Translations under genes and position numbers: made by a program
Shown: positions 41,524-58,949 of the stretch, piece after piece
Numbering within the stretch: position 1 is the stretch's first letter
Layout of the letters: each line of letters opens with the position of its first letter
The notes under the pieces: model-generated
What the model was told of the DNA's origin: nothing
Databases searched by the model: none
Seen by the model: only the letters and a program-made list of their open reading frames with translations
Origin: an uncultured Anaerolineales bacterium
Lineage (GTDB): Bacteria > Chloroflexota > Anaerolineae > UBA7937 > B3-Chlor
DNA: 64,000 nucleotides
NCBI GenBank assembly: GCA_964347945.1
Contig: CAYGAW010000055.1
Span: 4,787-68,786, forward strand
Direction of reading: 5' to 3'

Positions 41524-43998
41524 CTAGTCCAGCGACGGAAGGCCACTGTGGAAGAGTCCCGACCCGGCAGCGACCAACAAGCGATCACGAGTTACATCAA
41601 CAGTGAACGCTCGCAAGTCGTCGAAGGGATCCACACCGTCGCGGGAAGCACGGAACTGCCTTATGAACTGGCCGTCCCTATTGAACTCTACAATCCGGCC
41701 CTGACTCGGCTCCGCGACGAAGACCGACGACGCATCTGGAAGCGCGAATATGCCCGCAGGATGCTCCAAGGGAGGATATAATCCATCCTGTGGGAAAGGC
41801 TGAGCTGTCCCGCCCGCAAGCTTGATGATAGAGCCATCCGACATTAGCAGGTAGACGAAGCCATCTATGGCCATGTCAATCACGTCAGGCCACTGGACGT
41901 CCACCGGGCCTTGCACATACTCAACTGGCGGATGCAGGTAGTCGTCCCCAGACGGGACGTACTTGATGATACTCTCACGCCCCACGTCAAGTACATAGAG
42001 ATTTCCAGAGTAGGTTCTCAGTGCCTTCGGGCGTTGCCACTGCGCCGCATCGGCGATGGCGACAGGCCGGACGTTGCCGTCTGAGCCCAACTCCAGAATT
42101 TCTCCCTCGGCCGTCAGCATTAGAAGTGCCGGCGTCAGCCGTCCGTTGGCTGCCTCAATCCATTCTATGTCCACGATCTCGGTAGTAGGACCTCCATATG
42201 CCGCTGTCGATAGTTCCCACATCCAAGGCTCTTCATCTGCGAGAAGGACTCCGTCTTGATCCAGCGCATACCGATACAGACGCTGTCCACCCTCGTCGAG
42301 GACGTACAGTTCGTCATCACGGGTCAGCATTCGTCCAGCGACGTGGTCAGGCGTGGCTAACGTGTGCTCTTCGCCGAACATCATCGGGATGGAGCCCGTC
42401 AGCCCGTCCCATTGTCGGTCCATCTCCTCAACTAGTTGCCTCAACTCTACGCTGTCACTCTCATTGATCTGCGACTCGTCAAGCAACCGCTGGGCTTCTG
42501 CGAGCAAAGTCAGAGTGGCCTCGGTGTCGTCCTGTTGGTCTGCCAGCACAAGCTGTTCCCACACTTGGGTCGCCAGTCTCTCTACCTCCGCTTGCTCGAA
42601 CCGAGATCTGACCCGCACGGCAGCGGTGGCCACCAAGACGACAACGCCCAGCATGATGAGAGCTCCTATCAGCGTTCGGCTCCTGCGGGAAGGGTGGAAG
42701 CCGAGGACTCTAGCTCTTGCCATCGGACGCGCCGAGGCCCCGTATGTGACCGTAGCACCCTGTCGTTCCGGCAGGATGTTAATGAGAAGCCCTTTCGACG
42801 CTGCCCAAAGACCGATGAGTGCCATCCGACAACCGTTACCCAGCCGCTCAAGGACGCGGTTCCGCCTGGTCCAGGTGCAGGCTCGGCTCATGAAACCTAG
42901 GCACGATCTGAGCAACCTCAAGGTCCCTGTCCAGAGGCCGAGGAGCAGAGAGATCACCGCAGTCGCGGCCAGCCGAACACTTGCCTGCCGCTGTCCCAAG
43001 AGTTGTTGCGATTGCCGCTGCTTCCGGCCCAGACCCTGCATCTCCCGTCCGTCGAACTCTGCACTCGGCTTCGAGGTACGGACCCTACCGATAGGTTGGA
43101 CTTCTCCCAGAGAGACGTGGTCTTCACACAGGCGGATGCCCTCCATGTCGACAAACGAGCCTGCTGCTGCACCGGCATCGTCGTTGTCCGATTGAAGCGA
43201 CGACACAGATGTCTGCCCCGGAGATGCGACAGTCGTTGTGACACCTGTGCCGTAGTCACCACGACCTTCGGACAGCCAATCGCCGTGGGGGGTCATTCTC
43301 ACAAGCAGTGCTGAAAGGTCAATGTTCTTGCCCAGACGTCTCTCCAGACCTCTCGCTACCCCATCCATCCCGTGTTCGTCCAGGATAGTCGCCAACTCAC
43401 CACCGGCCTGCTGAAACGCGCCCTCGTCGCCGCCGCACATGATCAGCACACACTCACCAGGCAAGATCTGGCGATAGGAGAACTTCGGGTCCGACAGGGT
43501 CTGGCTGTGTCCCAGCAGAGAGCCATTCTCGGGCCAGTTCTGATCGGCGATGGGTTCGCTACGTGGGCTGGGATTGACGAAAGCGCGCACTCGTCCCCGG
43601 CTCAGAATGAGAATGGAATGGGGTCCCACACCACAACCATAGGCATCCATGCCACGTATTGCCACGCAGCCCAGGGCAGCGAGAAGCGCCTGTCCCTTTC
43701 GCCGCACCCGATTCCTAAGGTACAGATACTTGTTGGCGTTCCTTACAGCTTGTCGCAGGCGATTGGTCACTCCACCTTGTGATCGACGGTAGGTCTCTCG
43801 CGCGACTGCCTCTACTCGGTCACAGACGAGTTCTGTACCAGCGCTGGTGTTGACCACATGTGACACTGCGTAGAGTGCGCCCCACTTGTCGGACGCAGTC
43901 GGTGAAGCAGCATCAGACCCAGAGAATCTGCTCACCTTGACCTTGCCGTTGACGACAAGCAACCTAGTAGCCTCCCCACCCAAGTGCTCTTTCATCAT
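41524..43998 (-). CDS. Membrane protein with an N-terminal degenerate PP2C/SpoIIE-like domain and a C-terminal NHL-like beta-propeller
   Basis: The start is moved to ATG 43998/43995 because AGGAGG sits 3-6 nt upstream; the ORF-track start at 44175 overlaps the divergent gene. TM segments occur mid-protein (e.g. TLIGALIMLGVVVLVATAAV). C-terminal repeats include LYVLDEGGQRLYRY, LYVLDVGRESIIKY and VFVAEPSQGRIVEFNRDGQFIRQF. Confidence 0.55.
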   Translation of the reverse strand: MMKEHLGGEATRLLVVNGKVKVSRFSGSDAASPTASDKWGALYAVSHVVNTSAGTELVCDRVEAVARETYRRSQGGVTNRLRQAVRNANKYLYLRNRVRRKGQALLAALGCVAIRGMDAYGCGVGPHSILILSRGRVRAFVNPSPRSEPIADQNWPENGSLLGHSQTLSDPKFSYRQILPGECVLIMCGGDEGAFQQAGGELATILDEHGMDGVARGLERRLGKNIDLSALLVRMTPHGDWLSEGRGDYGTGVTTTVASPGQTSVSSLQSDNDDAGAAAGSFVDMEGIRLCEDHVSLGEVQPIGRVRTSKPSAEFDGREMQGLGRKQRQSQQLLGQRQASVRLAATAVISLLLGLWTGTLRLLRSCLGFMSRACTWTRRNRVLERLGNGCRMALIGLWAASKGLLINILPERQGATVTYGASARPMARARVLGFHPSRRSRTLIGALIMLGVVVLVATAAVRVRSRFEQAEVERLATQVWEQLVLADQQDDTEATLTLLAEAQRLLDESQINESDSVELRQLVEEMDRQWDGLTGSIPMMFGEEHTLATPDHVAGRMLTRDDELYVLDEGGQRLYRYALDQDGVLLADEEPWMWELSTAAYGGPTTEIVDIEWIEAANGRLTPALLMLTAEGEILELGSDGNVRPVAIADAAQWQRPKALRTYSGNLYVLDVGRESIIKYVPSGDDYLHPPVEYVQGPVDVQWPDVIDMAIDGFVYLLMSDGSIIKLAGGTAQPFPQDGLYPPLEHPAGIFALPDASSVFVAEPSQGRIVEFNRDGQFIRQFRASRDGVDPFDDLRAFTVDVTRDRLLVAAGSGLFHSGLPSLD

Positions 43999-44097
43999 CT
44001 GCCTCCTGACGGGCGCCTGGTAACGGAACCCGTTTGTCGCTCGTGAGTACAATAGGCTATAATGGTTCTTGGGCCTACTTGCCTGCCCAAGGTCATC

Positions 44098-44997
44098 ATG
44101 CTCAAGAAGGTGGTTCTGCCCGTCGTCGGGTGCCTGGCTCTCGCTCTCCTCGTCTTGCTGTGGCTTCCTGGCCAAGCCCAGCAGGTGTCACCCACGTACT
44201 TCCCACAGACCGGCCACTATCTTGATGAACCCTTTCTATCTGTTTTTGAAGCGAAGGGCGGACTACAGGCATTGGGTGCCCCGATCACCGAAGCCTTCGA
44301 GGAAGACGGCCTCCTGGTCCAGTACTTCCGACGCGCGCGCATGGAGTGCCCGGTAGGAACCCAGGCCCCAAGCGAAGTACACATGAGTCCGCTGGGAGAA
44401 CTCCTCGGTCATGGAACGCCGCGAACGACCCCAGCCCCAGACGTGATGATCAGGGATGGACTCTGTCGTTACTTCCCGGAAACCGGACACAACATCTGCT
44501 TCAGCTTCCTTGGCTTTTACACGGATCACGGCGGGTCCGACATCTTGGGACTCCCCATTAGCGAACTCACCGTTGAGCCAGGGGTGATCATCCAGTATTT
44601 CCAGCGTGCGCGAATAGAGTGGCATATGGACGCGCCAGCGGACGCTGCAATGAGACTTGGAGCTCTCGGCCAAGAACACTTTGAGGCGACAGGACTGGAT
44701 CCGAACCTGCTCCTGCCCGTGGAATCGGTGACTGTGTCTCCCTCCAGCACCCGGCACATCAACGTGGGAGACAACGTCAGGGTTGGAGACACCGAAGGGG
44801 CAGGCCTGCGGTTGCGATCCGGCCCTGGTCTCGGCCACGATACCATCGAAATGCTTGAGGAAGGCACCACTCTGCGCGTGGTCGGAGGGCCACAGGTTGC
44901 CGACGGCTTCACCTGGTGGTACCTGGAGCACCGCGGAACCCTTGGCTGGTGCGCCGAAGACTGGCTTGAGCCCGACCAGACTGTTGGCTCGCCATAG
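44098..44997 (+). CDS. Secreted protein with two YFxxTGH repeats and a C-terminal bacterial SH3 domain
   Basis: Signal peptide MLKKVVLPVVGCLALALLVLLWLPGQAQQ. The repeats read YFPQTGHYLDEPF...QYFRRARME and YFPETGHNICFSF...QYFQRARIEWH. The SH3b-like C-terminus reads GLRLRSGPGLGHDTIEMLEEGTTLRVVGGPQVADGFTWWYL. Confidence 0.65.
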   Translation: MLKKVVLPVVGCLALALLVLLWLPGQAQQVSPTYFPQTGHYLDEPFLSVFEAKGGLQALGAPITEAFEEDGLLVQYFRRARMECPVGTQAPSEVHMSPLGELLGHGTPRTTPAPDVMIRDGLCRYFPETGHNICFSFLGFYTDHGGSDILGLPISELTVEPGVIIQYFQRARIEWHMDAPADAAMRLGALGQEHFEATGLDPNLLLPVESVTVSPSSTRHINVGDNVRVGDTEGAGLRLRSGPGLGHDTIEMLEEGTTLRVVGGPQVADGFTWWYLEHRGTLGWCAEDWLEPDQTVGSP

Positions 44998-45062: not shown

Positions 45063-46415
45063 CTATTCTGGCATCACGAAGCTCCGCCCCAATGTCACCA
45101 CAATGTCACTGCCCTCCTTCAGGTTCGGATCCAGGATGACATACTCGGGGCCCACGCGCAGCAAGGCAGATATGAGGGCAGCCGTGCCAGCCATCTCGCG
45201 ACGACTGGCGATGAACGTTCCGTCGGACTCGATTTGAAGTCCGTCGCTCTCCGCGCGAGCAGTGTATCCGCGCCGACGCAGATAATCGGCGATTTCGATC
45301 GCTAATCCTGGACTGGATGCATCAGCACGTACGAGGATCCGAGCTTCTGCCAGTTCCGGGTCCCAAGACTCAGTGATGACAGGTGAATCCTCCAACAGGT
45401 TAGCTATCATCCCCCGAATGCGCTGCAACCTTGGCAAGAGTACCTGTGCGCCGTCAGGCGCAACGTAGGGGATCGTCAAGGATTCGTCAATCACCCTCAG
45501 CTGCACGTCCTCCAGTTCGATTCGGGTTGCCAGATTGGCCAAGGCCAGCAAATCTTGGGCGGGCAAGTCAGTCGAGAAGGCATCGCGGAACACCGGGAGC
45601 AAATCACGAAGCGAGAAGATTATGTCTAGTCTCAGAGCCTTCTCCCTCATGGCCAAGATCACCTGCTGCTGCCGACGCATCCTGGAGAAGTCACTCGTCT
45701 CGTGACGAGCCCTCACGTATTGCAAAGCGGTCTCGCCATTCATGTGCTGGCTCCCGGCCGGGATATAGATCCTCATGTATCCATAGCTGTCGTCCGGGTA
45801 GCGATCATCGCTGATGGCCTCCGGCACGTCGACCGTGATACCGCCCAAGATGTCTACGATTTGTTTGAAGCATTCGAAATTGAGTGTCCCATAGTAGTCG
45901 ATGGCAACTCCGAAGTTGTGCTCGATGGTCCGCTTCATCAACCCAGGGCCAGCCTCTTCCGTGCCTTCGAACTCTCCGTAGAAGTATGCGCTGTTTATCC
46001 TATTCTCACCGTGTCCCGGGATCTCGACCCAGAGGTCCCGGGCAATTGAAAGCAACGCGACCTCTCTCTCCACCGGGTCCACGCTGGCGATCATGATTAC
46101 ATCGGCCCTACCCGGCAACGCTGAGCCAGGGCGCTGATCAATCCCCATCACCAAGATGTTCACCCTATCGGTGCCCCGCCACATCGGCAACGGCTCGGTT
46201 GCGGGCACCACCGTCTCCACGGGCACAGATCCGGCAGGCCCGTGTTCCGTCCCCGGGGAGCGGTCTATCACTTTCACCGCCTGTCCCGCGCCGTGTGTCA
46301 GACGATAGCCCGTTTGGAAGCCTGTCACCAGAAAGGCTATGGCCAGTATGCTGCTGACAATTCGATCAACCCGGGCAAGCAAGGACGTTCGTTGCCGCGC
46401 AGGCTGTCCAATCAC
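45063..46415 (-). CDS. LytR-CpsA-Psr (LCP) family wall-glycopolymer ligase with a C-terminal LytR_C-like domain
   Basis: N-terminal TM anchor, RVNILVMGIDQRPG...RADVIMIASVDPVEREVALLSIARDLWVEIPGHGENRINSAY. Confidence 0.85.
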   Translation of the reverse strand: MIGQPARQRTSLLARVDRIVSSILAIAFLVTGFQTGYRLTHGAGQAVKVIDRSPGTEHGPAGSVPVETVVPATEPLPMWRGTDRVNILVMGIDQRPGSALPGRADVIMIASVDPVEREVALLSIARDLWVEIPGHGENRINSAYFYGEFEGTEEAGPGLMKRTIEHNFGVAIDYYGTLNFECFKQIVDILGGITVDVPEAISDDRYPDDSYGYMRIYIPAGSQHMNGETALQYVRARHETSDFSRMRRQQQVILAMREKALRLDIIFSLRDLLPVFRDAFSTDLPAQDLLALANLATRIELEDVQLRVIDESLTIPYVAPDGAQVLLPRLQRIRGMIANLLEDSPVITESWDPELAEARILVRADASSPGLAIEIADYLRRRGYTARAESDGLQIESDGTFIASRREMAGTAALISALLRVGPEYVILDPNLKEGSDIVVTLGRSFVMPE

Positions 46416-46482
46416 TGGATTTCTCCTTCAGCCTGACTCAGACTGTGCAACGGCGCGAAAGAGCGCGTCTGCGTCTCTGGGC

Positions 46483-46944
46483 CTATTTCTGGACCCCAGT
46501 GTGCCTCGCCGCCCGGGTGGCAACGACGACGACTATCAGCGCCAGGCCAAGCCCCACCGTCTCCAGCAGGCCAAGCCCTGTCTGAGGCATTCCCGGTGAG
46601 TCCGGGCTAGGGCTGCTCATGCCTGGACCATTCTGACCACCGCCGTTCTCCGGGCCTTCGACTGTCGGACTTGGAGTAGTCGAAGCCATGACCAAAGTGG
46701 GAGTCGGCGCCCGTGTAGGTGTTGCACTGGGCAGCGGCGAAGGAGTAGGAACGTCAGGCTCCTCAAGCACCGGCGTGGGCGAGGCCGCCTCAAGCGGTGG
46801 CATGGCGACCTCCGTGGGGCCAGAGATGAGCCTGAACATCACCAGTCCTCCGATGCCAAGCAGACCCAAGACAAGCGACGCCGTGAGCACGAGTGCAACC
46901 ACCATGAACAACCTGCTACTTCCCGTGTCTGTTCCCTTCTGCAT
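46483..46944 (-). CDS. Small Pro/Thr-rich surface protein with a sortase-type C-terminal sorting signal
   Basis: N-terminal TM or signal segment, a PT-rich region, then MPQTG, a hydrophobic stretch (LGLLETVGLGLALIVVVVA) and a basic tail (TRAARH). Confidence 0.5.
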   Translation of the reverse strand: MQKGTDTGSSRLFMVVALVLTASLVLGLLGIGGLVMFRLISGPTEVAMPPLEAASPTPVLEEPDVPTPSPLPSATPTRAPTPTLVMASTTPSPTVEGPENGGGQNGPGMSSPSPDSPGMPQTGLGLLETVGLGLALIVVVVATRAARHTGVQK

Positions 46945-47021
46945 TTTCCTTCTGAACCTCCTTCAAGCTATGATCACTCTCTCTTCTCTGTAACTGACAG
47001 AAGCTTGGCTTCCACCGAGCA

Positions 47022-50000
47022 CTACTGCCTTTCCACGGCGAACAGATCTTCGTACCGGCTCAGGCCCCGCAGTAGTTCCTCAACGACCTCTGGTTCCATC
47101 CAGTTCGTGACCAACCGAGTGTCAGCCTCAACATCGCCCTCGGTCCCGCCCTGAGTGCCGTTCTCACTGAACGTCAATATCACGACCTCGTGCCTCACAT
47201 CCACCTGGAACGCCTCACCCAGGAAGCGTAGCGTGTAGACGGCATCGGCCCAAACTGGGACCTCGAAGCCACCCGACCCATAGTCCGTCTTCGAGCCACT
47301 GGTGACGCTCACCGAATTGCCCCACGGGTCAACGATGTCCAGGCGTATTCCTTGGCGCGGGAAACATCCAGCTATGGCTCTGACTCCATCGCTCCGAGGT
47401 TGCCGGACCACGCTCATGCTCCACTTCGCTCCGGGCCGCCCAGGACTTGGCTGAGGCGCGGGGGGCGGAACGGGCTCAGGTGAGGGGCCCGGGGACGGAG
47501 GCGCTGGAGCGGGCGGCCGCACCGGGACGGTGATTCCTTGCCGTACGAAACGCGCCATCGCCGACACAGCATCTATGGTTTGCTGGCGCGTGCCGTTTGG
47601 GCCATCGTACCAAGCGGCTGGTTCCTCGCTTCCAGACAGAATCGAAGGGCACACAGCGAACAAGTACTCGGGCAAGCGATCACCGTGGGATAGCATTCCA
47701 TACCTGAACCACGAAAACATGGCCACATGATGGGCCTGATGCAGGAAGTCATCTACCTTGGGATAGCGACGGTCGGTGAGATCACCATACTCCCATCCTC
47801 CTGCGGCACAGATGAAGGGTGGAGCGAAACCCAGTTCATCTTCGAATACCTTCGCATACGCCAGGAATCCCAGGACACAATCATGGTCGTCATTGATGGT
47901 CTGCCCCGGGCGCTGGCCTTCGCGGCGCCAGCGGTTCACTTCCTCTATCGAGCCCGCGAACTCCCACTCGGGATGCTGAACCGGCAACGCGCGCTGGTTG
48001 ATGTCATCGTACGGATAGCGCGCCGGGCGGTTTCGGCCATAGTTGTGGCAGCAGAACCAGCTGTGCCGGAAGATGTGCTCCAGTCCTCGTCTCTTCGCTT
48101 CGCTGATGACCTTTCGCAAGTCCTCGGTCCTATTGACCTGCAGCCCGGGATAGGCATCAGCCTCGACCAGGGACTGCGCTTGCGTCAGCCAGCGTGAGGC
48201 AAACACTTCCATGTCCACGCGACCTGTCTTCCACTCCGTCGCCTTCTCTGGAGCGTTGTACACCTGTATGTAGGCCGGAATCTTCAGCTTCGATAAGATC
48301 CTCGCATCCTTTGCGAAATCATGATCCTCATCGACTAAGCATCTTGGCCGCACCACTGGCATGATGCCCCTCTCCCAGTAGGCCGGGGCCGCCTTTCGCA
48401 GTTGTGCATCCTCCTCAGTGGCCAGCACCACCCATCTCAGGTTGAGCGCCTCCACCCGCGCCAGATCTGTGGCTATGGCCTGGTCCGAGAAATCCAAGCC
48501 TGCATGGATTCCCAGGCCGTTGTCGCCAGGAGGACGCGGCCAATCGGAGTATCCCGTCCTTAGTTCGGGCCAGGTGTCTACAGGCACTCTGTCGGCGCCC
48601 ACAATCTCGACATCGGTATAGTAGTGCGTCAGGATGTCCGCGTAGGTTGCACCCTGCTCCGCCATGGCGATGGCCCCTTGTTGACACATGCCTACGCCGT
48701 GCCCATGCATGGATGGGTAGGGCTTTATGCAAGGTACGCTCCTGCAATAGGGCAAAGCCCGAACCCAAACATCTTCGCTGTTGCGGGTGTGTCCGTCACA
48801 ATGGTCGAAGTAGAAAGCTTGGATCACCTCATCGCCGTGCAGGGCCACTATGTCTGCGGTGTCCTCCACAGCTTTGTCTGTGCTAGGGTACGTATCTGCC
48901 GACCAAGCCTGGCAATGAGTGGTGGTACAGACATCGGCGCTCTGGGCGCTGTGCCTCGGATTCGCCACTGCGAATGCCGCGTAGCAACGGGTGGCCACGG
49001 CCTGGGCCTTGATCGCCTCAATTGGGGCTTCCTCGTCCATCTGTCGCGGGACCACGCCTCGAAGGTACTCTTCGAGACGCATCACCTTGACATTGCCGTC
49101 CGTCGTCAGAACCCTGATCTCCGTCGGTACATGCACGCGGAGTTGGCGCTTCACCTTCGGCAAGGTCTTCAGTCGGACAGCAGTCTGTGGCAAGCGTGGT
49201 TCGCCATTAGGCCTGTACCAACTGTGCCTCACGAAGAAGTTGTCATCCTCTGCTGCCAACAGCCAGAACGCATTGTTGAAGACGTAGTACGGAACGTCGC
49301 CGTTCATCAACATCTGGCACATCGCAGCATGCCGCTCAGCATGTAGAGCTTCGTTGATGGCAGGGGATCGAGGGTCGTCAGCATCCCCCAGCCGCACACC
49401 ATTCTCACAACAGATCATGGGCAGCCGCCGTCCGGTGTACTGGCGGACTATCTCATCGTACCATTCGAACATGTAGAAGCCTGTGTGATCCTCGCAGCCT
49501 GGAGGGCGCTGGAAAGGTTGTGCACAGCGCCAGCGTGCGCTGCCTCCCTTTCCATAGTCCAGCGGCTTGTTGAAGGCATAGTTGTGGATGCCGATAGCCA
49601 TCTTGTCGTACAGGTATTTCTTTCCACGTTGGTTCAGGATGGCCAATGCAGACTTCAAGAAGGAGGTGTCCCAGTAGTCACCGGCCGGAGCCAGAGGGGT
49701 AAACACTGGAATGATCCCGTCCACCGAGTACATTGTTTCTAGGCAAGGTATCAGGAAATCCATGAATCGAGCGGGCAGGCCTTGGGCATTCCACTCGGCC
49801 CACTCAAGCCTGAGGTTGGGTTCGTTGAACGCGTGCACATAGTGCACGCCAAGGGAGGCATAGTACTTGCAGGCCTTGCGCAACCCAGCCTGGTCGATGA
49901 AGGTCACGAATCTCGTGTAGATGCGGATAAGCGGCTCGATGTCGTGGTCAATCAGCCCGCGTAGAAACCACTCGGGGATCGGGTTCACGCCGTCGGACAG

Positions 50001-50150
50001 CACCAATAGCCAACTGGTGCCCATGGCCTTCAACTCCGGCACGAAGGTGTCGAAGTAGCGACGCTCGTAGTGCCATTGATCCGGAAACCAGTGAAACCCT
50101 ATGCCGGTGTCTCCCCTTGGTCTGGGATAGTCGAGCAAGTTCACAATCAT
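47022..50150 (-). CDS. 1042-aa multidomain protein: TIM-barrel glycosidase-like unit 1, SpoIID/LytB-like domain, TIM-barrel-like unit 2 (degenerate), Pro-rich linker, beta-sandwich module
   Basis: Unit 1 has AFNEPNL and ICCENGV. The SpoIID-like segment reads EEYLRGVVPRQMDEEAPIEAIKAQAVATRCYA...GHGVGMCQQGAIAMAEQG (about 48603-49133). Unit 2 has VYNAPEK and ICAAGGW. It is paralogous to 59511..61958. No signal peptide. The start may be GTG 50144. Confidence 0.7.
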   Translation of the reverse strand: MIVNLLDYPRPRGDTGIGFHWFPDQWHYERRYFDTFVPELKAMGTSWLLVLSDGVNPIPEWFLRGLIDHDIEPLIRIYTRFVTFIDQAGLRKACKYYASLGVHYVHAFNEPNLRLEWAEWNAQGLPARFMDFLIPCLETMYSVDGIIPVFTPLAPAGDYWDTSFLKSALAILNQRGKKYLYDKMAIGIHNYAFNKPLDYGKGGSARWRCAQPFQRPPGCEDHTGFYMFEWYDEIVRQYTGRRLPMICCENGVRLGDADDPRSPAINEALHAERHAAMCQMLMNGDVPYYVFNNAFWLLAAEDDNFFVRHSWYRPNGEPRLPQTAVRLKTLPKVKRQLRVHVPTEIRVLTTDGNVKVMRLEEYLRGVVPRQMDEEAPIEAIKAQAVATRCYAAFAVANPRHSAQSADVCTTTHCQAWSADTYPSTDKAVEDTADIVALHGDEVIQAFYFDHCDGHTRNSEDVWVRALPYCRSVPCIKPYPSMHGHGVGMCQQGAIAMAEQGATYADILTHYYTDVEIVGADRVPVDTWPELRTGYSDWPRPPGDNGLGIHAGLDFSDQAIATDLARVEALNLRWVVLATEEDAQLRKAAPAYWERGIMPVVRPRCLVDEDHDFAKDARILSKLKIPAYIQVYNAPEKATEWKTGRVDMEVFASRWLTQAQSLVEADAYPGLQVNRTEDLRKVISEAKRRGLEHIFRHSWFCCHNYGRNRPARYPYDDINQRALPVQHPEWEFAGSIEEVNRWRREGQRPGQTINDDHDCVLGFLAYAKVFEDELGFAPPFICAAGGWEYGDLTDRRYPKVDDFLHQAHHVAMFSWFRYGMLSHGDRLPEYLFAVCPSILSGSEEPAAWYDGPNGTRQQTIDAVSAMARFVRQGITVPVRPPAPAPPSPGPSPEPVPPPAPQPSPGRPGAKWSMSVVRQPRSDGVRAIAGCFPRQGIRLDIVDPWGNSVSVTSGSKTDYGSGGFEVPVWADAVYTLRFLGEAFQVDVRHEVVILTFSENGTQGGTEGDVEADTRLVTNWMEPEVVEELLRGLSRYEDLFAVERQ

Positions 50151-50725
50151 CCTCCTGTCTGGCCATGCTCGCGGTCCTCGGCGCTCTGCGGAATCAGCAA
50201 TTCCTGTCCAAGGGCCAAGATCGCCTCAGGATCCAGTTCGTTCAGAGCCGCAATCTCATCTACTGTCGTACCGTATTGCATGGCGACATCCCACAGATTG
50301 TCACCGGCGCTGATCACGTGCACACGTCGCCGTTCCGTGCGCTCTGTCTCTACCGAGACTGGCTCTCCAGCGAGGACGTCGCCAGTGGTTGCTTCCTCCA
50401 CAGCTGGGATAGCAAGCTCCTGACCCGGCTGCAAGCGATCAGGCTCCGGTAGCGAGTTCGCGTCCACCAGGGCCTGCGGCGTGACTCCGAAGCGCTGCGC
50501 GATTCCCCACACTGTGTCTCCTGCTTGTACGGTGTAGTGGGTGAGCTTCGGCCGTTCAGGGGTGCCTACCGGCGAAGCGGTCGGCGAGGGTGCGGCGAGC
50601 TCTGGCTCCGCCTCCACCGTTGGAGTTGCGGTCGCCATCGGCTTCTCCCTCGTGCAGCCGCCAATCGGAAGCGCGACCGTTATGCACAGCACAGACACCC
50701 ATTGCCATGGGATCCTGCGACCCAC
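50147..50725 (-). CDS. Lipoprotein with two LysM domains
   Basis: Lipobox IGGC. LysM domains read YTVQAGDTVWGIAQRFGVTPQALVDANSL and HVISAGDNLWDVAMQYGTTVDEIAALNEL. Its stop overlaps the next gene start as ATGA. Confidence 0.85.
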   Translation of the reverse strand: MGRRIPWQWVSVLCITVALPIGGCTREKPMATATPTVEAEPELAAPSPTASPVGTPERPKLTHYTVQAGDTVWGIAQRFGVTPQALVDANSLPEPDRLQPGQELAIPAVEEATTGDVLAGEPVSVETERTERRRVHVISAGDNLWDVAMQYGTTVDEIAALNELDPEAILALGQELLIPQSAEDREHGQTGG

Positions 50726-50744
50726 GGGATGACCTCCTCTCAGT

Positions 50745-52472
50745 CTACTTGGGAGCGTTCCTCAGGGCGTCATAGGCCGGCCTGGTAGTGCCATCAGGAT
50801 TAGTGATGGCCCACCAATACTGCTCATCGGCCTCGGTCCATTTCACATCCGCAATGGAGAGCACCGTCATGGGGCCCATCCACGGCGACCAATGGTCGCG
50901 TGCCCATTGAAAGGCGCGTACTATGTAGTCAGCCTTCGTTTCCTCGGACACCGCATGCCACTGGTACGGGGATCCGGGTCTAGGATCGCTCGTCCAGCCG
51001 AACTCCAACACGGCCATCTGCTTCCCTGCGTCGCCGTTCTGCACCATGATCTGGCGCAAATCTTCGACACGCCTGAAGCAGAAGAAGCGCCTTCCTCCCA
51101 AGGCAGGGTTGTTCGCCACCTCAGCTGGATCTGTCTCTGGGGCAGCCTTGTAACCCGGTGCATGAACGCCCAGCACGTCGAAATAGTTCTTGGCGCCGGC
51201 CTGGTACATCTCACGCAGATATTGGGCATCCGGAATGGCGTGGGGGAGCCCAGTTCCTGTGGGAGCCAAACCCGCCGTCATGACCACGGCGTTGGGGTCG
51301 GCCTGCTTGATGCCACGATGGGCCACTCGCAGGAGAGCGACATATTCTGCGGCGTTGGGTGCCTTGCCACCCCACTCGCGCGCCAGATTCGGCTCATTCC
51401 AGATCTCATACGCATGGATCTTCCCGCGATATCGGCTCGCCATAGCGTAGAGAAAGTCACCATAGTCAATGTAGTTGTCCGGCGGACCGTTGTTCGCGCC
51501 GTCGGCTCTCGCCCAAATCGGCTGGAAATCCACGCGAGCAATGATCTTCAGTCCACGATCATTGAGGATCTGGACCAGCTGGTCCGCAACCGACCAATCG
51601 AAGATACCTTTACCTGCCCCTTCGATGTTTTTCCATGGGAACACCTCTTTGACCCAGGTCACTCCCGCGTCCTTTGCCAACTGAGCATCTCGATCGCGGT
51701 GCTCCCCATTCCACCACATGAAGGTATGAACCCCGTACTCTGGCGTCTTCGTGCCAGGCGCCGGGCCAGGCTTCGCGGTCGGTGTCGGAGAAACCGTGGG
51801 CCCAGGTGCTGGAGTGGTCGGTCGGGGTGTTGGCGTGGGCGAACTGCTCGGCGAGCATCCCGGGATCGTCAGCCGCTGGCCAACCCAGATGAAGGAAGGA
51901 TTGGCCAGGTTGTTGGCGATGGCAATGGCCCACACCGTAGTGCGATACGCGAGAGCGATTCTCGTCAAGTTATCGCCACGCTTCACGACATAGACACAGG
52001 TCTGAGCTGGCTGAGAGGGCTGGGACGGTGCTCCCTGCCCGGGAACCCGGAGCGTCTGTCCCGCGAAGATGAGGTTGGGATTCACCAGCCCGTTCAACGA
52101 GACGAGGCCGTTGACGGTGGTTCCAAAGCGGTAGGCAATACCCGATAGGGTGTCTCCTCTCCGCACCACATAGGTGGTCGTCGAGCCCGACGGAGGCGGC
52201 GCAGGAGATGTCGAACCAGTCGGGATCACCAACCTCTGGCCTGCGTAGATGTAGTTGGGATTGGCTATCCCGTTCGCCTGCGCGATAGCCGTGGTGCTGA
52301 CACCATAGCGCCGGGCTATCAAGGTAAGATTCTCACCCCACTGGACTATGTGGATCTGCGAAACCGTACTTTGAGGATTCGTCTCAGGCGCCCCCCAGAC
52401 AGGAGATGCCAGGCCTGCGAGAAGCGCAACCAGAGATACCACCATCACCAGCCGACGTTTTCTGTTCCCCAT
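50745..52472 (-). CDS. Secreted protein with three LysM domains plus a clan GH-A (GH5-like) TIM-barrel glycoside hydrolase
   Basis: Signal peptide, three LysM domains, a PT linker, then YEIWNEPNL (acid/base context) and [10 protein letters not shown] (nucleophile context). Confidence 0.8.
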
Positions 52473-52567
52473 TTCTCTACCTCCTTCTTGCGACCGTCAT
52501 GGACGACAGGGTGCTGCTGGTCCGCGATCCGTCGATCTGAACCGAACTGCCGTGTGATAAACACTCT

Positions 52568-52753
52568 CTAAAACCCTCTTCCATAGGCCATACCAATAAG
52601 CCAGCCAACGACATACGCGACCACCAGGATGACCAGCAGAAACCTCACCTGAAGCAGTCCACTGGTTATCGATGCTGTGGCTCTCCAGAAGATCAGCCGA
52701 AGCATGCCCACACCTCCAGGACCGGGCTCCTCAGAGCCTGCGGCCTGCAACAA
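52568..52753 (-). CDS. Possible small membrane protein
   Basis: The ORF starts 1 nt after the upstream stop and has a C-terminal hydrophobic helix FLLVILVVAYVVGWLIGMAYG. There is no homology evidence, and the true start could be the internal MLRLIFW. Confidence 0.25.
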   Translation of the reverse strand: MLQAAGSEEPGPGGVGMLRLIFWRATASITSGLLQVRFLLVILVVAYVVGWLIGMAYGRGF

Positions 52754-52754
52754 C

Positions 52755-54362
52755 TCACCGATATACAGTCCGTTGAAATGTCAGGACGAACCCTGTGTGG
52801 ATTGTCCAGTCAGGGTGCTCCGGAGTGCCCAATCCCATCCCCACCATGATATCGCTGGGCAACCCTTCTACATACGCGCTGTAAGAACAAAGCACGTTGA
52901 ACATCGGATACTTCACCGGATAGTCCCACGGGTAGCAGCAACTCTGGGGTTCGCTGACCACCCGGTTGCGGCCGCCGTTCTCAAAGATCACGGCCTCTCC
53001 GAACACGCGCTGCCCGGCTTCGTCCAGCAGATCCACGTGGATCTGGATGTCTTTGCGGCTCTCCTCCTCACTCAGCCATCTCGCGCTCACCAGCCGCCAG
53101 TAGCGATCGCCTGCTCGCAGCTGTATCCCTCGATCCGCCACAGTCCGCATTCCTACGCACGGCAAAGCGTTCAGCCGCGAATCCCATTCTACGGGGGGCA
53201 ACGGTGTGTTTGGCACGGCAGTCGGGGAGGTATTGCTGGTTGGCACAGGAGTGGGATTCCCTCCGGAGTACTGGAAGACGATGCTGTCGAACTGTCCGGC
53301 GGTGCCGCAGTCGGTGAACCGGATTTCCGCCGTGCCCGACTCGGGTACTGGATTAGCCTCGCTCTTCACGATGTCAATCAGAAACGTGAAAGGAGAATGG
53401 AAGTTCTCCGGAGCCAACGGCGCGAACCCCCACATACCCGGGTCCTGGCCCGCTCCGCTTATGTTGTAGACGACATGACCCGCGAAGCGTAGCCGCACGG
53501 TCCTGCCGCTCACCGGCTCGCCTCCAACACCTCTGATCTGGCCCTTGAAGTACACCGTTCCGCAGTTGGGGTATTGGCGCATGCTACCCTGCACGTACGT
53601 GAATGCGTACGCGGATGGCGTCGGCTGGCTAGGAGGCCTCGACGTCGGTGTCGCCGCCTGACGAGTAGGGACAGCTGTCCTCGTCGGCACGGGCGCTGGA
53701 TTGTCGTCTGCAGGTGACCGAGCCCCTGGTATGACCAACGATTGGCCAACGTAGATGAATGATGGATTCGCGATATTGTTCGCGAGGACAATATCCCACA
53801 TGCTGACGCCGAAACGGGTGGCAATGCCTATCAGGGTGTCCCCCCACTGAACGTGATAGGTCGTACGGGTCGTGGGCTGACTCGCTGGCTGGCTGGGCGC
53901 TGCACCCCCAGGGACCGCCAGCCTCTGCCCAACGATTATCAGGTTCGGGTTGGTTAGACCATTCAATTGCACCAGGCGCTGCACCGTCGTTCCACGCCGA
54001 GCAGCTATGGCAGACAGCGTATCTCCCCTCTGAACCACGTAGACCCCGGAGTTGGCGGGTGCGGGAGATGTGGTCCCTGGGATAGTAAGCCTCTGGCCTA
54101 CGTAGATCCAATCGGGGTTGCTGAGCTGGTTGGCCTGCGTGATCGCGGAGACGGAGGTCCCATACCGCCGCGCTATGCTGGACAAAGTATCCCCCCAGGA
54201 AACGACATAGATGGTGGGTTCAAGAGCTTCAGGTACTGCAGACATGGCTGAGGGAACACTCGCGACAAGGCCTAGCATGACCAGCGACAACAGACCAGCG
54301 ACCAGGAGCCCCCGAGCAGTGAGTGTCATTATGATACGCTTGCGTGTCCTTGCCATCGTCAA
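52755..54362 (-). CDS. Secreted protein with three LysM domains, a PT linker and C-terminal beta-sandwich modules
   Basis: Signal/TM segment, three LysM domains collinear with those of 50745..52472, and a C-terminal module YWRLVSARW...[28 protein letters not shown]...HTGFVLTF that is shared with 59511..61958. Confidence 0.8.
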
Positions 54363-54378
54363 TCCCCTGGTCTGAGCC

Positions 54379-54615
54379 CTATCTTGAGACAGCGACCTTC
54401 AAGACCCTTCCTTCTTCGTTGGTGGTCAAATGCACAATCTGCTGGAACTTCTCTCCATTGGGTGAGCTCAGGGCCTTCCGGTAGGTGAAGCGATGCCTCG
54501 CCTGTCCTCCACGATTTGTGGAGCTGACCCTCGGCTTCACACTTGCCATCTCCGGGAAGTGCTTCTCAAGATGTTTCTGCGCCCTCGTTCTACACTCTTT
54601 GGAAGGCTTAGGCAT
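54379..54615 (-). CDS. Small basic protein overlapping the ftsZ stop
   Basis: 78 aa. The ATG overlaps the ftsZ 3' end by 8 nt. The C-terminal 43 aa align without gaps to the C-terminus of 61946..64000. Confidence 0.55.
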
Positions 54616-55807
54616 GTTTCTCCTCCCCTTCCTCCCCTACCCTGGCCAATCTCCGGCGTCTTAGGAAGGTGGGCACGTCCAAGTCAAGTAGATCGACGCC
54701 CTGCCGGGACCGGTCGAACTCCAGCGATTCCTTCCCTGTGGCGGCTCGCGGAGTACTAGGCGGCCTGCGGTAGAAAGATCTACGGTCGCCCACGGGCAAA
54801 CTCAGAGCGGATGGCGCTGATCGCAGACCATCCATCCCTACCGCTATGAGCATCACCTGCAATTGCCTGCCCATGCCGGGATCCACCGTAGCGCCGAAAA
54901 AGATGTTAGCCTCGGGACTGGCCACCCCGGCCACGGTGCTCACAGCCTGCTGGATCTCGTCCAGAGACAGGTCGTTTCCACCGGTGATGTTGACCAAGAT
55001 TCCCGATGCGCCTGCAATGGAGGACAGCTCGGAAAGAGGGCTGGCGATTGCCAGCTCTGCGGCTTCTATTGCCCGATCATCCCCACGGCCCTGTCCGATC
55101 GACATGAGTGCGGGGCCAGCGTCTTGCAGTATGGTCCGGACGTGCATGAGATTGAGATTGATGACGCCTGTACTCGTGATCAGCTCTGCCACGCCTTGAA
55201 TCCCTTGCCTCAGTACCTCGTCCGCTATCCGGAAGGAGATGTCGAGCGAGGTCTCCTCATCGATGAACTCCAGCAGGCGGTCATTGGATATGGCGACGAG
55301 GGTGTCCGACTTCACCGCGAGAGCCTCCATGCCTTCTTGAGCCGTCTCACTGCGTCGGCGCCCCTCGAAGCTAAAGGGGGTCGTCGCAACGGCGATGGTC
55401 AACGCTCCGCTCTCACGCGCCAACTCCGCAATGACCGGGCCTGCACCCGTCCCCGTACCACCACCTAGACCGAGTGCCAGAAAGACGATCTCTGCCCCGC
55501 TCAAGGACTGTCGCACTGCTTCCGCGCTTTCTTTGGCTGCCTTGGCCCCAACTTCAGGATTCCCCCCAGCTCCGAGGCCTCTGGTGGTCTTCGGCCCGAG
55601 TTGAACCTTACGCGGTGCCTCCGACAGGGCAAGAGCCTGCGCGTCGGTATTCGCCGCGAGGAATTGCACCCCAGGAATACCTACGTGAATCATCCTATCG
55701 ATGGCGTTACTGCCCCCGCCACCAATTCCGATGACCTTGATCAATGGTTGGTAGTGCTGTGGAGTCATTGCTTCCCTCTGCGAACGCCCGCTAGCTAACC
55801 CATTCAT
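54608..55807 (-). CDS. ftsZ: Cell division protein FtsZ
   Basis: IKVIGIGGGGSNAIDRM, GLGGGTGTGAGPVIAE (tubulin signature), and a C-terminal peptide LDVPTFLRRRR. Confidence 0.95.
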   Translation of the reverse strand: MNGLASGRSQREAMTPQHYQPLIKVIGIGGGGSNAIDRMIHVGIPGVQFLAANTDAQALALSEAPRKVQLGPKTTRGLGAGGNPEVGAKAAKESAEAVRQSLSGAEIVFLALGLGGGTGTGAGPVIAELARESGALTIAVATTPFSFEGRRRSETAQEGMEALAVKSDTLVAISNDRLLEFIDEETSLDISFRIADEVLRQGIQGVAELITSTGVINLNLMHVRTILQDAGPALMSIGQGRGDDRAIEAAELAIASPLSELSSIAGASGILVNITGGNDLSLDEIQQAVSTVAGVASPEANIFFGATVDPGMGRQLQVMLIAVGMDGLRSAPSALSLPVGDRRSFYRRPPSTPRAATGKESLEFDRSRQGVDLLDLDVPTFLRRRRLARVGEEGEEKHA

Positions 55808-55821
55808 TCGCGCTGCTCCCC

Positions 55822-58452: not shown

Positions 58453-58487
58453 GCTAGTCTCCTCTACGAGCCATCAACCCCTTGCGG

Positions 58488-58934
58488 CTAGATGCCATAC
58501 TCACTCAGGGCCTCTGAGAACCTCTCTGCTCGTTCCTCGATACCGGATTCCTGTCTCGCCCAACGCTGTGGATTCCAGATCTCGAGACGTGTCGCAACAC
58601 CGACGAGCACCACCTCATCGCCCAATTCTGCATAGCGCCGCAGATGGTCCGGGACCTCTATTAGTCCATCAGACTCGAGGCTACCGATCGAAGCCCCCCC
58701 GTAGACATGCCGCTGGAACATCCGAGCAGCTTCTCGCAAGAATGTGGTCCCATGGTCGATCCGGTCCGACAGTTCCTTCCACCGATCACGAGGGAAAATG
58801 GCCACGCAGTGATCCAACCCTCTGGTCATGACAAACCCCGGCTGCAGAGCCTTCCCTATCTCAGCGGGCACAACAAGACCCTCACCAGAAAGCCGTATGC
58901 CTTCGTAAGTACCCAGCAACAGATCACCTACCAC
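58488..58934 (-). CDS. mraZ: MraZ-like (SpoVT/AbrB-fold) protein
   Basis: Duplicated half-domains and the family C-terminal pattern VVLVGVATRLEIWNPQRW. Both DXXXR motifs look degenerate (LSGEGLVVP and ESDGLIEVP). Confidence 0.65.
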   Translation of the reverse strand: MVGDLLLGTYEGIRLSGEGLVVPAEIGKALQPGFVMTRGLDHCVAIFPRDRWKELSDRIDHGTTFLREAARMFQRHVYGGASIGSLESDGLIEVPDHLRRYAELGDEVVLVGVATRLEIWNPQRWARQESGIEERAERFSEALSEYGI

Positions 58935-58949
58935 GCCTCCGCCACCTCC

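What the first reader, a model, noticed from the sequence alone, without database searches (positions are those of the whole stretch)
47022..50150. Two giant paralogs, each a tandem of TIM-barrel glycosidase-like units with reciprocal loss of catalytic Glu residues
**The unit.** 47022..50150 (1042 aa) and 59511..61958 (815 aa) both lack a signal peptide or TM segment. Each contains two copies of a ~300-aa unit. The four unit starts are RPRGDTGIGFHWF, RPPGDNGLGIHAG, RPQNDTGFGFHYF and RPPGDNGMGIHLG.

**Catalytic positions.** In clan GH-A enzymes these positions carry the acid/base Glu (N-E-P) and the nucleophile Glu.
- 1042-aa unit 1: AFNEPNL and ICCENGV, both Glu present.
- 1042-aa unit 2: VYNAPEK and ICAAGGW, both lost.
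- 815-aa unit 1: VLGEANV and VCMGSGT, nucleophile lost.
- 815-aa unit 2: IFNEPSD and ICGEGGW, both present.
- The neighbouring LysM enzyme 50745..52472 shows the canonical IWNEPNL and VLEFGW.

**Interpretation.** One predicted active barrel is paired with one pseudo-enzyme barrel, in opposite order in the two paralogs. This suggests a binding-plus-catalysis division of labour. I do not recognise the unit as any named GH family.
Basis: partly seen in the sequence, partly recalled or inferred. Interest (0 to 1): 0.75.

Follow-up and report, generated by a model that had tools for sequence, protein, structure and literature searches.

The report
Tandem glycosidase-like barrels, one intact
Two neighbouring genes in a Chloroflexota cell-division gene cluster each encode two copies of an unannotated sugar-cutting barrel fold, one copy apparently active and one disabled but still conserved, and neither protein has an export signal, so they look like unusual cell-wall remodelling enzymes from a poorly understood phylum.

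Summary
**Observation: confirmed.** ORF A (47022..50150, 1042 aa) and ORF B (59511..61958, 815 aa; likely true start 61949) each hold two homologous ~300-aa units.

**What the units are.** AlphaFold models (pLDDT 86 and 83) show four eight-stranded β/α barrels, with the quoted positions just after β4 and β7. The best structural matches are clan GH-A enzymes (PslG/GH39, GH5, GH1, GH2). No Pfam, NCBIfam or PHROG model matches the units. A profile chain links them to characterised enzymes: units → neighbouring LysM enzyme family (98% probability) → PslG (E 5e-21).

**Size and spread.** The family has at least 1,394 clusters at 50% identity. Every named member and located locus is Chloroflexota.

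- A also carries an intact SpoIID lytic-transglycosylase domain.
- A unit 2 keeps its β7 Glu in 25 of 28 close orthologues. E783A and W836S are recent changes.
- Polarity flips within the A family itself.

**Added findings.**
- All 85 tandem proteins keep at least one intact barrel.
- Disabled barrels are under purifying selection (ω about 0.11).
- 81% of members have no leader, and their barrels are Cys-rich.

**Verdict.** This is a new variant of a known kind, probably leaderless cell-wall glycan hydrolases. Substrate and export are unknown.

The parts
47022..50150 (-). ORF A, 1042 aa: barrel unit 1, SpoIID domain, barrel unit 2, Pro-rich linker, C-terminal β-sandwich. No leader.
   Evidence: ORF. 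AF2 model with pLDDT 86.2. About 35 full-length orthologues. ATGA overlap with the upstream LysM gene.
49140..50135 (-). A unit 1 (aa 6-337): intact GH-A-like barrel with N109-E110 after β4, H189-N190-Y191 on β6, E249 on β7 and W296 on β8.
   Evidence: Strand positions. All nine signature positions are invariant in 28 of 28 clade orthologues. dN/dS 0.055.
48585..49136 (-). A SpoIID/LytB domain (aa 339-522), a lytic-transglycosylase type with the catalytic-Glu motif IEAIKAQ and conserved Cys/His positions.
   Evidence: Pfam PF08486 3e-20 and TIGR02669 2.4e-48. PDB 5i1t at 1e-21 by sequence and 7e-15 by Foldseek. E378 nearly invariant; C408, C413, C451 and C474 invariant.
47538..48551 (-). A unit 2 (aa 534-871): disabled barrel with N632-A633-P-E635 after β4, A783 at the β7 position and S836 at the β8 Trp position.
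   Evidence: E783A (GCA) and W836S (TCG) are shared only with the 97%-identical relative L005. dN/dS 0.112.
47157..47429 (-). A C-terminal β-sandwich domain (aa 908-998), function unknown.
   Evidence: Eight predicted strands at 910-996. No Pfam match. Not detectably related to the B middle domain.
59511..61958 (-). ORF B, 815 aa (probable true start ATG at 61949, 812 aa): barrel unit 1, β-sandwich, barrel unit 2. No leader.
   Evidence: ORF. AF2 model with pLDDT 83.1. About 30 orthologues. ATGA overlap with the upstream C25-like gene.
60951..61943 (-). B unit 1 (aa 6-336): disabled barrel with G110-E111-A-N after β4 and G251 at the β7 nucleophile position. His, Arg, His-Asn and Trp pocket residues are retained.
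   Evidence: G251 in 28 of 29 orthologues and E111 in 25 of 29.
60495..60896 (-). B middle β-sandwich domain (aa 355-488). It is also found in ~690-aa relatives that carry Amidase_2.
   Evidence: Strands at 358-485. 48-57% identity to P0059-P0073, which carry PF01510.
59535..60422 (-). B unit 2 (aa 513-808): intact barrel with N611-E612 after β4, H681-N682-Y683 on β6, E722 after β7 and W775 on β8.
   Evidence: E612, E722 and five other signature positions are invariant (29/29); N682 and Y683 are each 28/29.
50745..52472 (-). Neighbour C: signal peptide, three LysM domains and a PslG-like GH39/GH5 barrel (IWNEPNL, VLEFGW). It is the bridge linking the units to characterised GH-A enzymes.
   Evidence: Its homologues carry PF00150, PF01229 and PF02449. 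Its family profile matches PslG 5bx9 at E 5e-21 and the unit profile at 98.1% probability.
45063..63940 (-). Conserved division and cell-wall cluster, in transcription order from 63940 down to 45063: C25-like peptidase, B, DivIVA/Scy-like, MraZ, Amidase_2, FtsZ, LysM, LysM-GH (C), LysM, A, small Pro-rich protein, LCP ligase.
   Evidence: Pfam. The same order is found in L001/L003/L004, L053 and L054.

Best explanation
**What they are.** A and B are paralogous, leaderless, multi-domain cell-wall glycan hydrolases. They are built from an unannotated family of clan GH-A-type (β/α)8 barrels that is centred on Chloroflexota and most closely related to PslG-like GH39/GH5 enzymes.

**How they arose.** An ancestral tandem with two intact barrels gave rise to proteins that keep one catalytic barrel. 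The sister barrel lost one or both catalytic carboxylates.

**How they work (inferred).**
- The intact barrel has Asn-Glu acid/base after β4 and a Glu nucleophile after β7, so it presumably uses a retaining double-displacement mechanism.
- The disabled barrel keeps most pocket residues and stays under purifying selection. It most likely binds or positions substrate, or acts as a scaffold.
- In A the active barrel works next to an intact SpoIID-type lytic transglycosylase. A would then cut two kinds of glycan bond in the wall.
- Both genes sit in a conserved ftsZ/mraZ/amidase/LysM/LCP cluster. The likely role is remodelling or splitting the septal wall (peptidoglycan and/or an attached polysaccharide) during division or filament fragmentation.

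**Shown versus inferred.**
- Shown computationally: fold, motif placement, homology chain, conservation pattern, synteny, absence of a leader.
- Inferred: hydrolytic activity, substrate, binding role of the disabled barrel, and how a leaderless protein reaches the wall. The precedent for the last point is the leaderless autolysin LytA, which is cytoplasmic and released by lysis.
For: **Fold.**
- Both models show eight β/α repeats per unit, with the Glu positions at the β4 and β7 C-termini.
- Foldseek top hits are PslG GH39 (2e-7 and 3e-8), then GH39, GH157, GH2, GH5, GH158, GH1, GH51, GH72 and GH79.
- The viral library returns phage GH5 proteins, best E 5.8e-14.

**Homology chain.**
- Unit profile vs neighbour C family: 98.1% probability, E 7e-14, 294 columns, catalytic motifs aligned.
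- C family vs PslG: E 5e-21.
- PslG catalytic residues E165 and E276 are from PMC9075953.

**Intact versus disabled barrels.**
- The intact barrels keep all or nearly all nine signature positions across orthologues: 28 of 28 in A unit 1, and 28-29 of 29 in B unit 2. Disabled barrels lose only the catalytic positions.
- All 85 tandem proteins keep at least one barrel with both Glu residues.
- The intact barrel is always the more conserved of the two.
- dN/dS is 0.055 for A unit 1 and 0.112 for A unit 2. SpoIID is 0.090.

**Wall association.**
- Family members are fused to Amidase_2, NlpC/P60, SLT and SLT_3, GH25, SpoIID and LysM.
- Synteny with ftsZ, mraZ, Amidase_2, LysM genes and LCP is conserved.
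- Loss of PslG prevents daughter-cell separation.

**Leaderless precedent.** LytA.
Against: - No biochemical data exist for any family member.
- No match reaches significance against any curated GH model.
- There is no signal peptide or TM segment. Leaderless barrels are Cys-rich (1.8%) compared with 0.37% in the signal-peptide-bearing members, which argues for real cytoplasmic residence. No export route is identifiable.
- The window's A unit 2 has also lost the β8 Trp, which weakens a pocket-binding role in this particular genome.
- I could not read model coordinates, so the Glu-Glu distance was not measured.
- Inter-domain geometry is uncertain (pTM 0.5-0.6).
Confidence: 0.55

Rival explanations
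1. The proteins are truly cytoplasmic enzymes. They process wall-derived or precursor glycans inside the cell (recycling of muropeptides or wall-polymer fragments, or trimming of lipid-linked intermediates) and never act on the assembled wall.
For: - No leader in 228 of 280 family proteins. No room for one in A or B.
- Leaderless barrels have about five times the Cys content of barrels from signal-peptide-bearing members (p about 1e-11).
- Amidase_2 fusions would fit an AmpD-like cytoplasmic amidase (own knowledge).
- B is translationally coupled to a leaderless C25-like/TPR protein.
Against: - The fused SpoIID, SLT, GH25 and NlpC/P60 domains and LysM act on or bind polymeric peptidoglycan.
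- Every other wall enzyme in the cluster is exported.
- Some family members do carry signal peptides directly ahead of the same barrel.
- The Cys comparison is not corrected for phylogeny.
Confidence: 0.2
2. Unit 2 of A-type proteins is not a pseudo-enzyme in general. It uses a relocated acid/base (the invariant Glu in N-A-P-E) together with the retained β7 Glu. Most A orthologues would then have two active barrels, and only the window's lineage has recently lost the second.
For: - E635 is present in 28 of 28 clade orthologues and the β7 Glu in 25 of 28. His, Arg, Asn, His-Asn and Trp are retained.
- The E783A and W836S changes are confined to the window and L005.
Against: - Position 783 has changed independently to Ala, Asp and Gly within the clade, which suggests relaxed constraint.
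- Unit 2 evolves about twice as fast as unit 1.
- I could not check where E635 sits in the model.
Confidence: 0.15
3. None of the barrels is a hydrolase. The whole family would be a carbohydrate-binding or scaffolding module (or a TIM barrel with different chemistry) that targets the fused peptidoglycan hydrolase domains.
For: - No significant match to any curated GH model.
- About 70 single-barrel clusters are fully degenerate (D-R-P-N type).
- Lower-ranked Foldseek hits include sugar isomerases and MTHFR.
Against: - The complete GH-A signature is kept in every (or, at two positions of B unit 2, all but one) intact-barrel orthologue. Such conservation is hard to explain without catalysis.
- The top structural hits are consistently GH-A enzymes.
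- There is 98% profile homology to a PslG-like family with the catalytic motifs aligned.
- B has no other catalytic domain.
Confidence: 0.07
4. A and B are prophage-derived endolysins, which typically lack a leader and are released through holins.
For: - They are leaderless multi-domain wall hydrolases.
- The best viral structural hits are phage GH5-like proteins.
Against: - No PHROG match.
- Flanking genes are housekeeping genes: FtsZ, MraZ, ClpX, trigger factor.
- Base composition is uniform across the window.
- Gene order is conserved across genomes down to about 50% identity.
Confidence: 0.03

Closest known systems
PslG of Pseudomonas aeruginosa (GH39, clan GH-A; PDB 5bx9)
   Same: - It is the best solved-structure match for both models.
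- It has a (β/α)8 barrel with N-E-P after β4 and a Glu after β7.
- It is encoded inside a polysaccharide or envelope gene cluster.
- Its loss leaves daughter cells joined at the septum (PMC9075953).
- The neighbouring gene C is a true PslG-like enzyme.
   Different: - The A and B units share only about 10-15% identity with PslG and match no GH39 or GH5 model directly (best E 0.033).
- They occur in tandem, are fused to SpoIID or a β-sandwich domain, and lack the membrane anchor or signal that PslG has.
α-Klotho/β-Klotho and molluscan akuBGL (tandem GH1 domains)
   Same: - Two clan GH-A barrels sit in one chain, with catalytic Glu residues missing.
- In akuBGL the first domain is inactive and the second active (PMC11696049 and PMC10619976).
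- α-Klotho aligned to model A over 1129 columns.
   Different: - These are eukaryotic, secreted or membrane proteins of family GH1.
- In Klotho both domains lack a Glu.
- They show no polarity switching between paralogues or clades and have no fused peptidoglycan hydrolase.
SpoIID/LytB lytic transglycosylases (PDB 5i1t, 4rwr)
   Same: The central domain of A is a member: Pfam and TIGRFAM scores are above their cut-offs, the fold matches at rmsd 2.0 Å, and the catalytic Glu motif and Cys/His positions are conserved.
   Different: - Here the domain is inserted between two GH-A-like barrels in a leaderless protein.
- SpoIID homologues without the barrel mostly have an N-terminal hydrophobic segment.
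LytA autolysin of Streptococcus pneumoniae
   Same: It is a wall hydrolase with no secretion motif. It resides mainly in the cytoplasm, reaches the wall after lysis, and acts at the division zone (PMC3322828). This is a precedent for how it might work, not a homologue.
   Different: It is an Amidase_2 domain with choline-binding repeats and has no barrel. For A and B, localisation and release have not been tested.

Membership tests
Clan GH-A glycoside hydrolases | (β/α)8 barrel catalytic domain | tested here: met
   DSSP on the AF2 models shows eight β/α repeats in each of the four units, with pLDDT mostly above 90. GH-A enzymes top the Foldseek lists.
Clan GH-A glycoside hydrolases | Acid/base Glu preceded by Asn at the C-terminal end of β4 | tested here: met
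   - Met in A unit 1 (N109-E110, β4 at 104-107) and B unit 2 (N611-E612, β4 at 606-608).
- Not met in A unit 2 (N-A-P).
- Partly met in B unit 1 (G-E-A-N).
Clan GH-A glycoside hydrolases | Nucleophile Glu at the C-terminal end of β7 | tested here: met
   - Met in A unit 1 (E249, within β7 at 245-251) and B unit 2 (E722, β7 at 718-720).
- Not met in A unit 2 (A783) or B unit 1 (G251).
Clan GH-A glycoside hydrolases | Detectable homology to an accepted GH-A family | tested here: met
   - Unit profile vs PslG-like family profile: 98.1% probability, E 7e-14.
- That family vs PslG: E 5e-21, plus GH39, GH10 and GH5 chains.
Clan GH-A glycoside hydrolases | Retaining hydrolysis, with carboxylates about 5 Å apart | not testable with these tools
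   Model coordinates cannot be read, and there are no assays.
GH39 (Pfam PF01229) or GH5 (PF00150) as a family member | Significant match to the family model or its sequences | tested here: not met
   - No Pfam hit even at E up to 10 for the isolated units.
- None in 62 further family members.
- Best hit of the unit profile against PDB sequences is GH39 XynB at E 0.033.
- CAZy/dbCAN could not be consulted.
SpoIID/LytB (central domain of A) | Match above curated cut-offs and a conserved catalytic Glu motif | tested here: met
   - PF08486: 73 bits (cut-off 23). TIGR02669: 165 bits (cut-off 83).
- E378 in IEAIKAQ aligns to IEALKAQ of 5i1t.
Klotho-type tandem pseudo-glycosidase | Two GH1 domains, each lacking a catalytic Glu | tested here: not met
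   The tandem arrangement with missing Glu residues is present. However, the units are not GH1, and one barrel per protein is fully intact. This is an analogy only.
Leaderless (LytA-like) autolysin | No secretion signal | tested here: met
   No hydrophobic N-terminal segment, the barrel starts at residue ~6, and ATGA start/stop overlaps leave no room for an extension.
Leaderless (LytA-like) autolysin | Cytoplasmic pool released by lysis and then acting on the wall | not testable with these tools
   The only evidence is the indirect Cys-content difference.

The most novel reading that the evidence does not exclude
A and B belong to a Chloroflexota-specific system in which wall hydrolases are made without a leader and held in the cytoplasm beside the division machinery. 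They would reach the wall, or an internal glycan layer, by an undescribed route such as controlled lysis of sacrificial cells, blebbing at division sites, or a dedicated exporter. The repeatedly evolved disabled barrels would act as built-in regulators or substrate sensors rather than simple binding modules. This would be a new mode of autolysin control in multicellular filaments.
Probability: 0.15. Interest if true: 0.8.

Novelty: new variant of a known kind. Interest (0 to 1): 0.55.

Why it matters
- **Unannotated family.** The barrel family is large (at least 1,394 clusters at 50% identity) and has no annotation. It may deserve its own glycoside hydrolase family within clan GH-A.
- **Envelope biology.** It is tied by gene fusion and synteny to peptidoglycan hydrolases and to ftsZ. 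It is a concrete entry point into how filamentous Chloroflexota split or remodel their poorly understood multilayered envelopes.
- **Pseudo-enzyme evolution.** The family is a natural series of tandem barrels. At least five independent inactivations each spare one barrel, polarity flips between clades, and decay is stepwise (acid/base first, then nucleophile, then the β8 Trp).
- **Export puzzle.** The lack of a leader and the Cys-rich composition raise a specific, testable question about how wall enzymes are exported in this phylum.

Tried and rejected
- **Family libraries.** Pfam, NCBIfam and PHROGs scans of whole proteins and isolated units found nothing for the barrels.
- **PDB sequence searches.** B gave no hit. 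A gave only SpoIID. The unit profile gave only sub-threshold GH39 and GH5 hits.
- **Accessory domains.** hhalign among the B middle domain, the A C-terminal domain and the tails of single-barrel proteins found no relationship (probability below 5%).
- **Locus search.** A tighter alignment worked, but its pattern (DTGIGFH[YW]) biases the taxonomic sample.
- **Prophage origin.** Rejected on context and synteny.
- **Sequencing error as the cause of E783A and W836S.** Rejected, because both changes recur in an independent MAG.
- **Literature.** Searches found nothing on this family.
- **Not possible here.** I could not read model coordinates to measure Glu-Glu distances or pocket geometry, and I could not query CAZy/dbCAN.


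Full report
**1.
- ORF A (47022..50150, minus strand, 1042 aa) and ORF B (59511..61958, minus strand, 815 aa) are present.
- A unit 1 matches B unit 1 at 42% identity (E 6e-82). A unit 2 matches B unit 2 at 39% (E 2e-70). Unit 1 and unit 2 are distant copies: 21% identity, E 2e-10.
- Profile-profile probabilities for unit 1 versus unit 2 are 94-99.6% over about 280-305 columns.
- An HMM of the unit finds exactly four copies in the window.
- Neither protein has a hydrophobic segment.
- Both start codons overlap the upstream gene's stop codon as ATGA, so no upstream leader can exist.
- B probably starts at the ATG at 61949. A possibly starts at the GTG two codons in.
- The source is an Anaerolineae (Chloroflexota) MAG.

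Between its two units A carries a SpoIID/LytB domain (aa 339-522).
- Pfam gives 3e-20, TIGR02669 gives 2.4e-48, and PDB 5i1t gives 1e-21 by sequence and 7e-15 by fold at rmsd 2.0 Å.
- The catalytic-Glu motif (IEAIKAQ) and a set of invariant Cys/His positions are conserved.
- A also ends in a β-sandwich (aa 908-998). B has a different β-sandwich between its units (aa 355-488).
- These accessory domains are not detectably related to each other.

**3. Fold and catalytic positions.** AlphaFold models built on family alignments are confident: A has pLDDT 86.2 and B has 83.1. Each unit shows eight alternating strands and helices.

| Unit | β4 strand | Residues after β4 | β7 strand | Residue at β7 position |
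|---|---|---|---|---|
| A unit 1 | 104-107 | N109-E110 | 245-251 | E249 |
| A unit 2 | 627-629 | N632-A633 | 779-785 | A783 |
| B unit 1 | 105-108 | G110-E111 | 246-252 | G251 |
| B unit 2 | 606-608 | N611-E612 | 718-720 | E722 |

- The best PDB matches are PslG (GH39; 2e-7 for B, 3e-8 for A), followed by GH39, GH157, GH2, GH5, GH158, GH1, GH51, GH72, GH79 and GH164.
- The viral structure library returns phage GH5 proteins (best E 5.8e-14).
- I could not read coordinates, so Glu-Glu distances remain unmeasured.

**4. Relation to named families.**
- No Pfam, NCBIfam or PHROG model matches the units, even at permissive thresholds and in 62 further family members.
- A 26-sequence unit alignment puts all four unit types in register. 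The shared columns are G-x-G-x-H (β1), Arg (β3), N-E-P (β4), H-N-Y (β6), x-E-x-G (β7) and Trp (β8).
- Against PDB sequences the unit profile gives only weak GH39 and GH5 hits (E 0.03-0.2). These nevertheless align N-E-P with WNEPNL.
- A bridge exists. The unit profile aligns to the barrel family of neighbour C at 98.1% probability (E 7e-14, 294 columns), with both catalytic motifs aligned.
- The C family matches PslG at E 5e-21 and many GH39, GH10 and GH5 chains. Its members carry precomputed GH5, GH39 and GH42 Pfam hits.
- The published catalytic residues of PslG are E165 and E276 (PMC9075953). That the aligned N-E-P Glu is E165 is my inference from its position in the chain.
- Conclusion: the units are clan GH-A-like barrels. 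They are not members of GH39 or GH5 by the usual sequence criterion. CAZy could not be checked.

**5. Size, spread and architectures of the family.**
- An exhaustive HMM search of 1.84 billion representatives finds 1,394 clusters at E ≤ 1e-3 and 650 at E ≤ 1e-30.
- All 48 genome loci found with a motif pattern are Chloroflexota: Anaerolineae, Caldilineae, Thermoflexales, Chloroflexia and *Litorilinea aerophila*. This sample is biased by the pattern used.
- All named members sampled are Chloroflexota and are labelled 'hypothetical'. One is *Ardenticatena maritima* WP_054493457.1, a leaderless protein with an intact barrel.
- Barrels are fused to SpoIID, Amidase_2, NlpC/P60, SLT and SLT_3, GH25, LysM and CarboxypepD_reg-type β-sandwiches. 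This points to the cell wall.

**6. The active/disabled pattern is real but more dynamic than described.**
- B-type proteins are uniform. The unit 1 nucleophile position is Gly in 28 of 29, and unit 2 is essentially intact: seven of the nine signature positions are invariant in 29 of 29, and N682 and Y683 are each 28 of 29.
- A-type proteins fall into three clades:
  - Clade 1 includes the window. Unit 1 is intact. Unit 2 reads N-A/S-P-E, with an invariant downstream Glu (28 of 28) and the β7 Glu kept in 25 of 28.
  - Clade 2 is reversed. The unit 1 nucleophile is lost and unit 2 is intact.
  - Clade 3 has unit 1 intact and unit 2 degenerate.
- The window protein is the only one of 28 in that alignment with both E783A and W836S.
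- Both changes recur with matching codons in an independent 97%-identical MAG. They are real and recent.
- Other lineages in the clade changed position 783 to Asp or Gly. This suggests stepwise decay after the acid/base was lost.
- Census of 280 unit-bearing proteins. A barrel is called EE if it has Glu at both the β4 and β7 positions. 'E-' keeps only the β4 Glu, '-E' keeps only the β7 Glu, and '--' has neither.

| Tandem state (unit 1, unit 2) | Number of proteins |
|---|---|
| (E-, EE) | 34 |
| (EE, -E) | 26 |
| (EE, EE) | 14 |
| (EE, --) | 7 |
| (--, EE) | 4 |

- All 85 tandem proteins therefore keep at least one fully intact barrel. These counts are not phylogenetically independent.
- Clade structure implies at least five separate inactivation events.
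- In divergent genomes the B position holds a single heavily degenerate barrel.

**7. The disabled barrels are not decaying relics.**
- They keep the putative pocket residues (His, Arg, His-Asn, Trp) in at least 25 of 29 or 27 of 28 orthologues.
- They are 60-76% identical among orthologues, though always less conserved than the intact partner.
- Nei-Gojobori dN/dS among seven A orthologues is 0.055 for unit 1, 0.090 for SpoIID, 0.112 for unit 2 and 0.104 for the C-terminal domain. dS is near saturation for distant pairs. The closest pair gives the same ranking.
- This fits a retained non-catalytic role such as binding, positioning or scaffolding, but does not prove it.

**8. Genomic context.**
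- The cluster runs, in transcription order: C25-like peptidase, B, a DivIVA/Scy-like protein, MraZ, Amidase_2, FtsZ, three LysM proteins (one of them the PslG-like enzyme C), A, a small Pro-rich membrane protein, and an LCP ligase.
- This order is conserved in genomes down to about 50% protein identity.
- The flanks are housekeeping genes and base composition is uniform, so this is not a prophage.
- Filamentous Chloroflexota have multilayered envelopes with a shared outer layer and septal channels, and these are poorly understood (10.1101/2025.08.19.671072).
- In *Pseudomonas*, loss of PslG leaves daughter cells attached at the septum. This is a useful functional parallel.

**9. The export puzzle.**
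- Of 280 family proteins, 228 begin with the barrel at residue 20 or earlier.
- Only 14 have a signal-peptide-like N-terminus, and all 14 carry only intact barrels.
- Barrels of those 14 proteins contain 0.37% Cys. Leaderless intact barrels contain 1.77% and leaderless degenerate barrels 1.28% (Mann-Whitney p about 1e-11, not corrected for phylogeny).
- This is indirect evidence that the leaderless proteins really sit in a reducing compartment.
- The precedent is LytA, a wall amidase with no secretion motif that is mostly cytoplasmic and released by lysis (PMC3322828).
- A purely cytoplasmic recycling role remains a serious rival.

**10. Comparison and verdict.**
- Tandem GH-A barrels with missing catalytic Glu residues are known in eukaryotic GH1 proteins. 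In α-Klotho both domains lack a Glu. In akuBGL the first domain is inactive and the second active. α-Klotho even appeared among the structural hits to A. The principle is therefore not new.
- What is new:
  - a large, unannotated, bacterial GH-A-like family;
  - its fusion to peptidoglycan hydrolases;
  - its position in a conserved ftsZ cluster;
  - its leaderless, Cys-rich nature;
  - repeated inactivation of one barrel, with polarity that switches between clades.
- I rate it a new variant of a known kind, with interest 0.55.
The functional division of labour is plausible but untested. The description of A needs the corrections given above.

Noticed in passing
window 46483..46944 (-): The small Pro-rich protein (153 aa) just downstream of A has an N-terminal hydrophobic segment. 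Its C-terminus reads MPQTG, then a hydrophobic stretch, then RAARH. This resembles an LPXTG-type sortase sorting signal. It has no Pfam match. A gene of similar size sits at the same position in L003, L053 and L054.
   Followed up: no
window 54608..58934 (-): mraZ is followed by a large Amidase_2/Big_7 protein and then ftsZ, not by the usual rsmH-ftsL-pbp genes. This unusual arrangement is conserved in L001, L053 and L054.
   Followed up: partly
window 61946..63940 (-): A leaderless, Cys-rich (2.0%) Peptidase_C25-like protein is translationally coupled (ATGA) to B. In other genomes its orthologue also carries TPR repeats and is preceded by a protein of more than 2,000 aa with no Pfam match.
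   Followed up: partly
window 52755..54362 (-) and 41524..44175 (-): The three-LysM protein has a C-terminal region of about 300 aa with no Pfam match. The 883-aa ORF downstream of the cluster has no Pfam match at all, although a protein of similar size (825 aa) is conserved at that position in L003.
   Followed up: no
family-wide (P0038-P0058 and about 70 clusters); L049 5959..8571: Many leaderless single-barrel relatives of about 455 aa are fully degenerate. They have a conserved D-R-P-N (Arg in place of the acid/base Glu) and no β7 Glu. The *Litorilinea aerophila* member (870 aa, H-R-P and S-G-G, plus CarboxypepD_reg-like repeats) is of this type. This looks like a dedicated pseudo-enzyme subfamily.
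   Followed up: partly
BFVD hits to model B: Three phage proteins aligned to B over about 890-940 columns: A0A6J5RDT7 (annotated GH5), Pseudomonas phage POR1 A0A0N9SJH5 (annotated GH5), and Bacillus phage G Gp673 (no functional annotation). This suggests that two-barrel GH-A architectures also exist in phages.
   Followed up: no
P0142, P0190, P0192-P0195, P0199-P0204: Tandem proteins with both barrels intact exist, and several carry signal peptides. They probably represent the ancestral state from which the one-intact, one-disabled proteins derive.
   Followed up: partly
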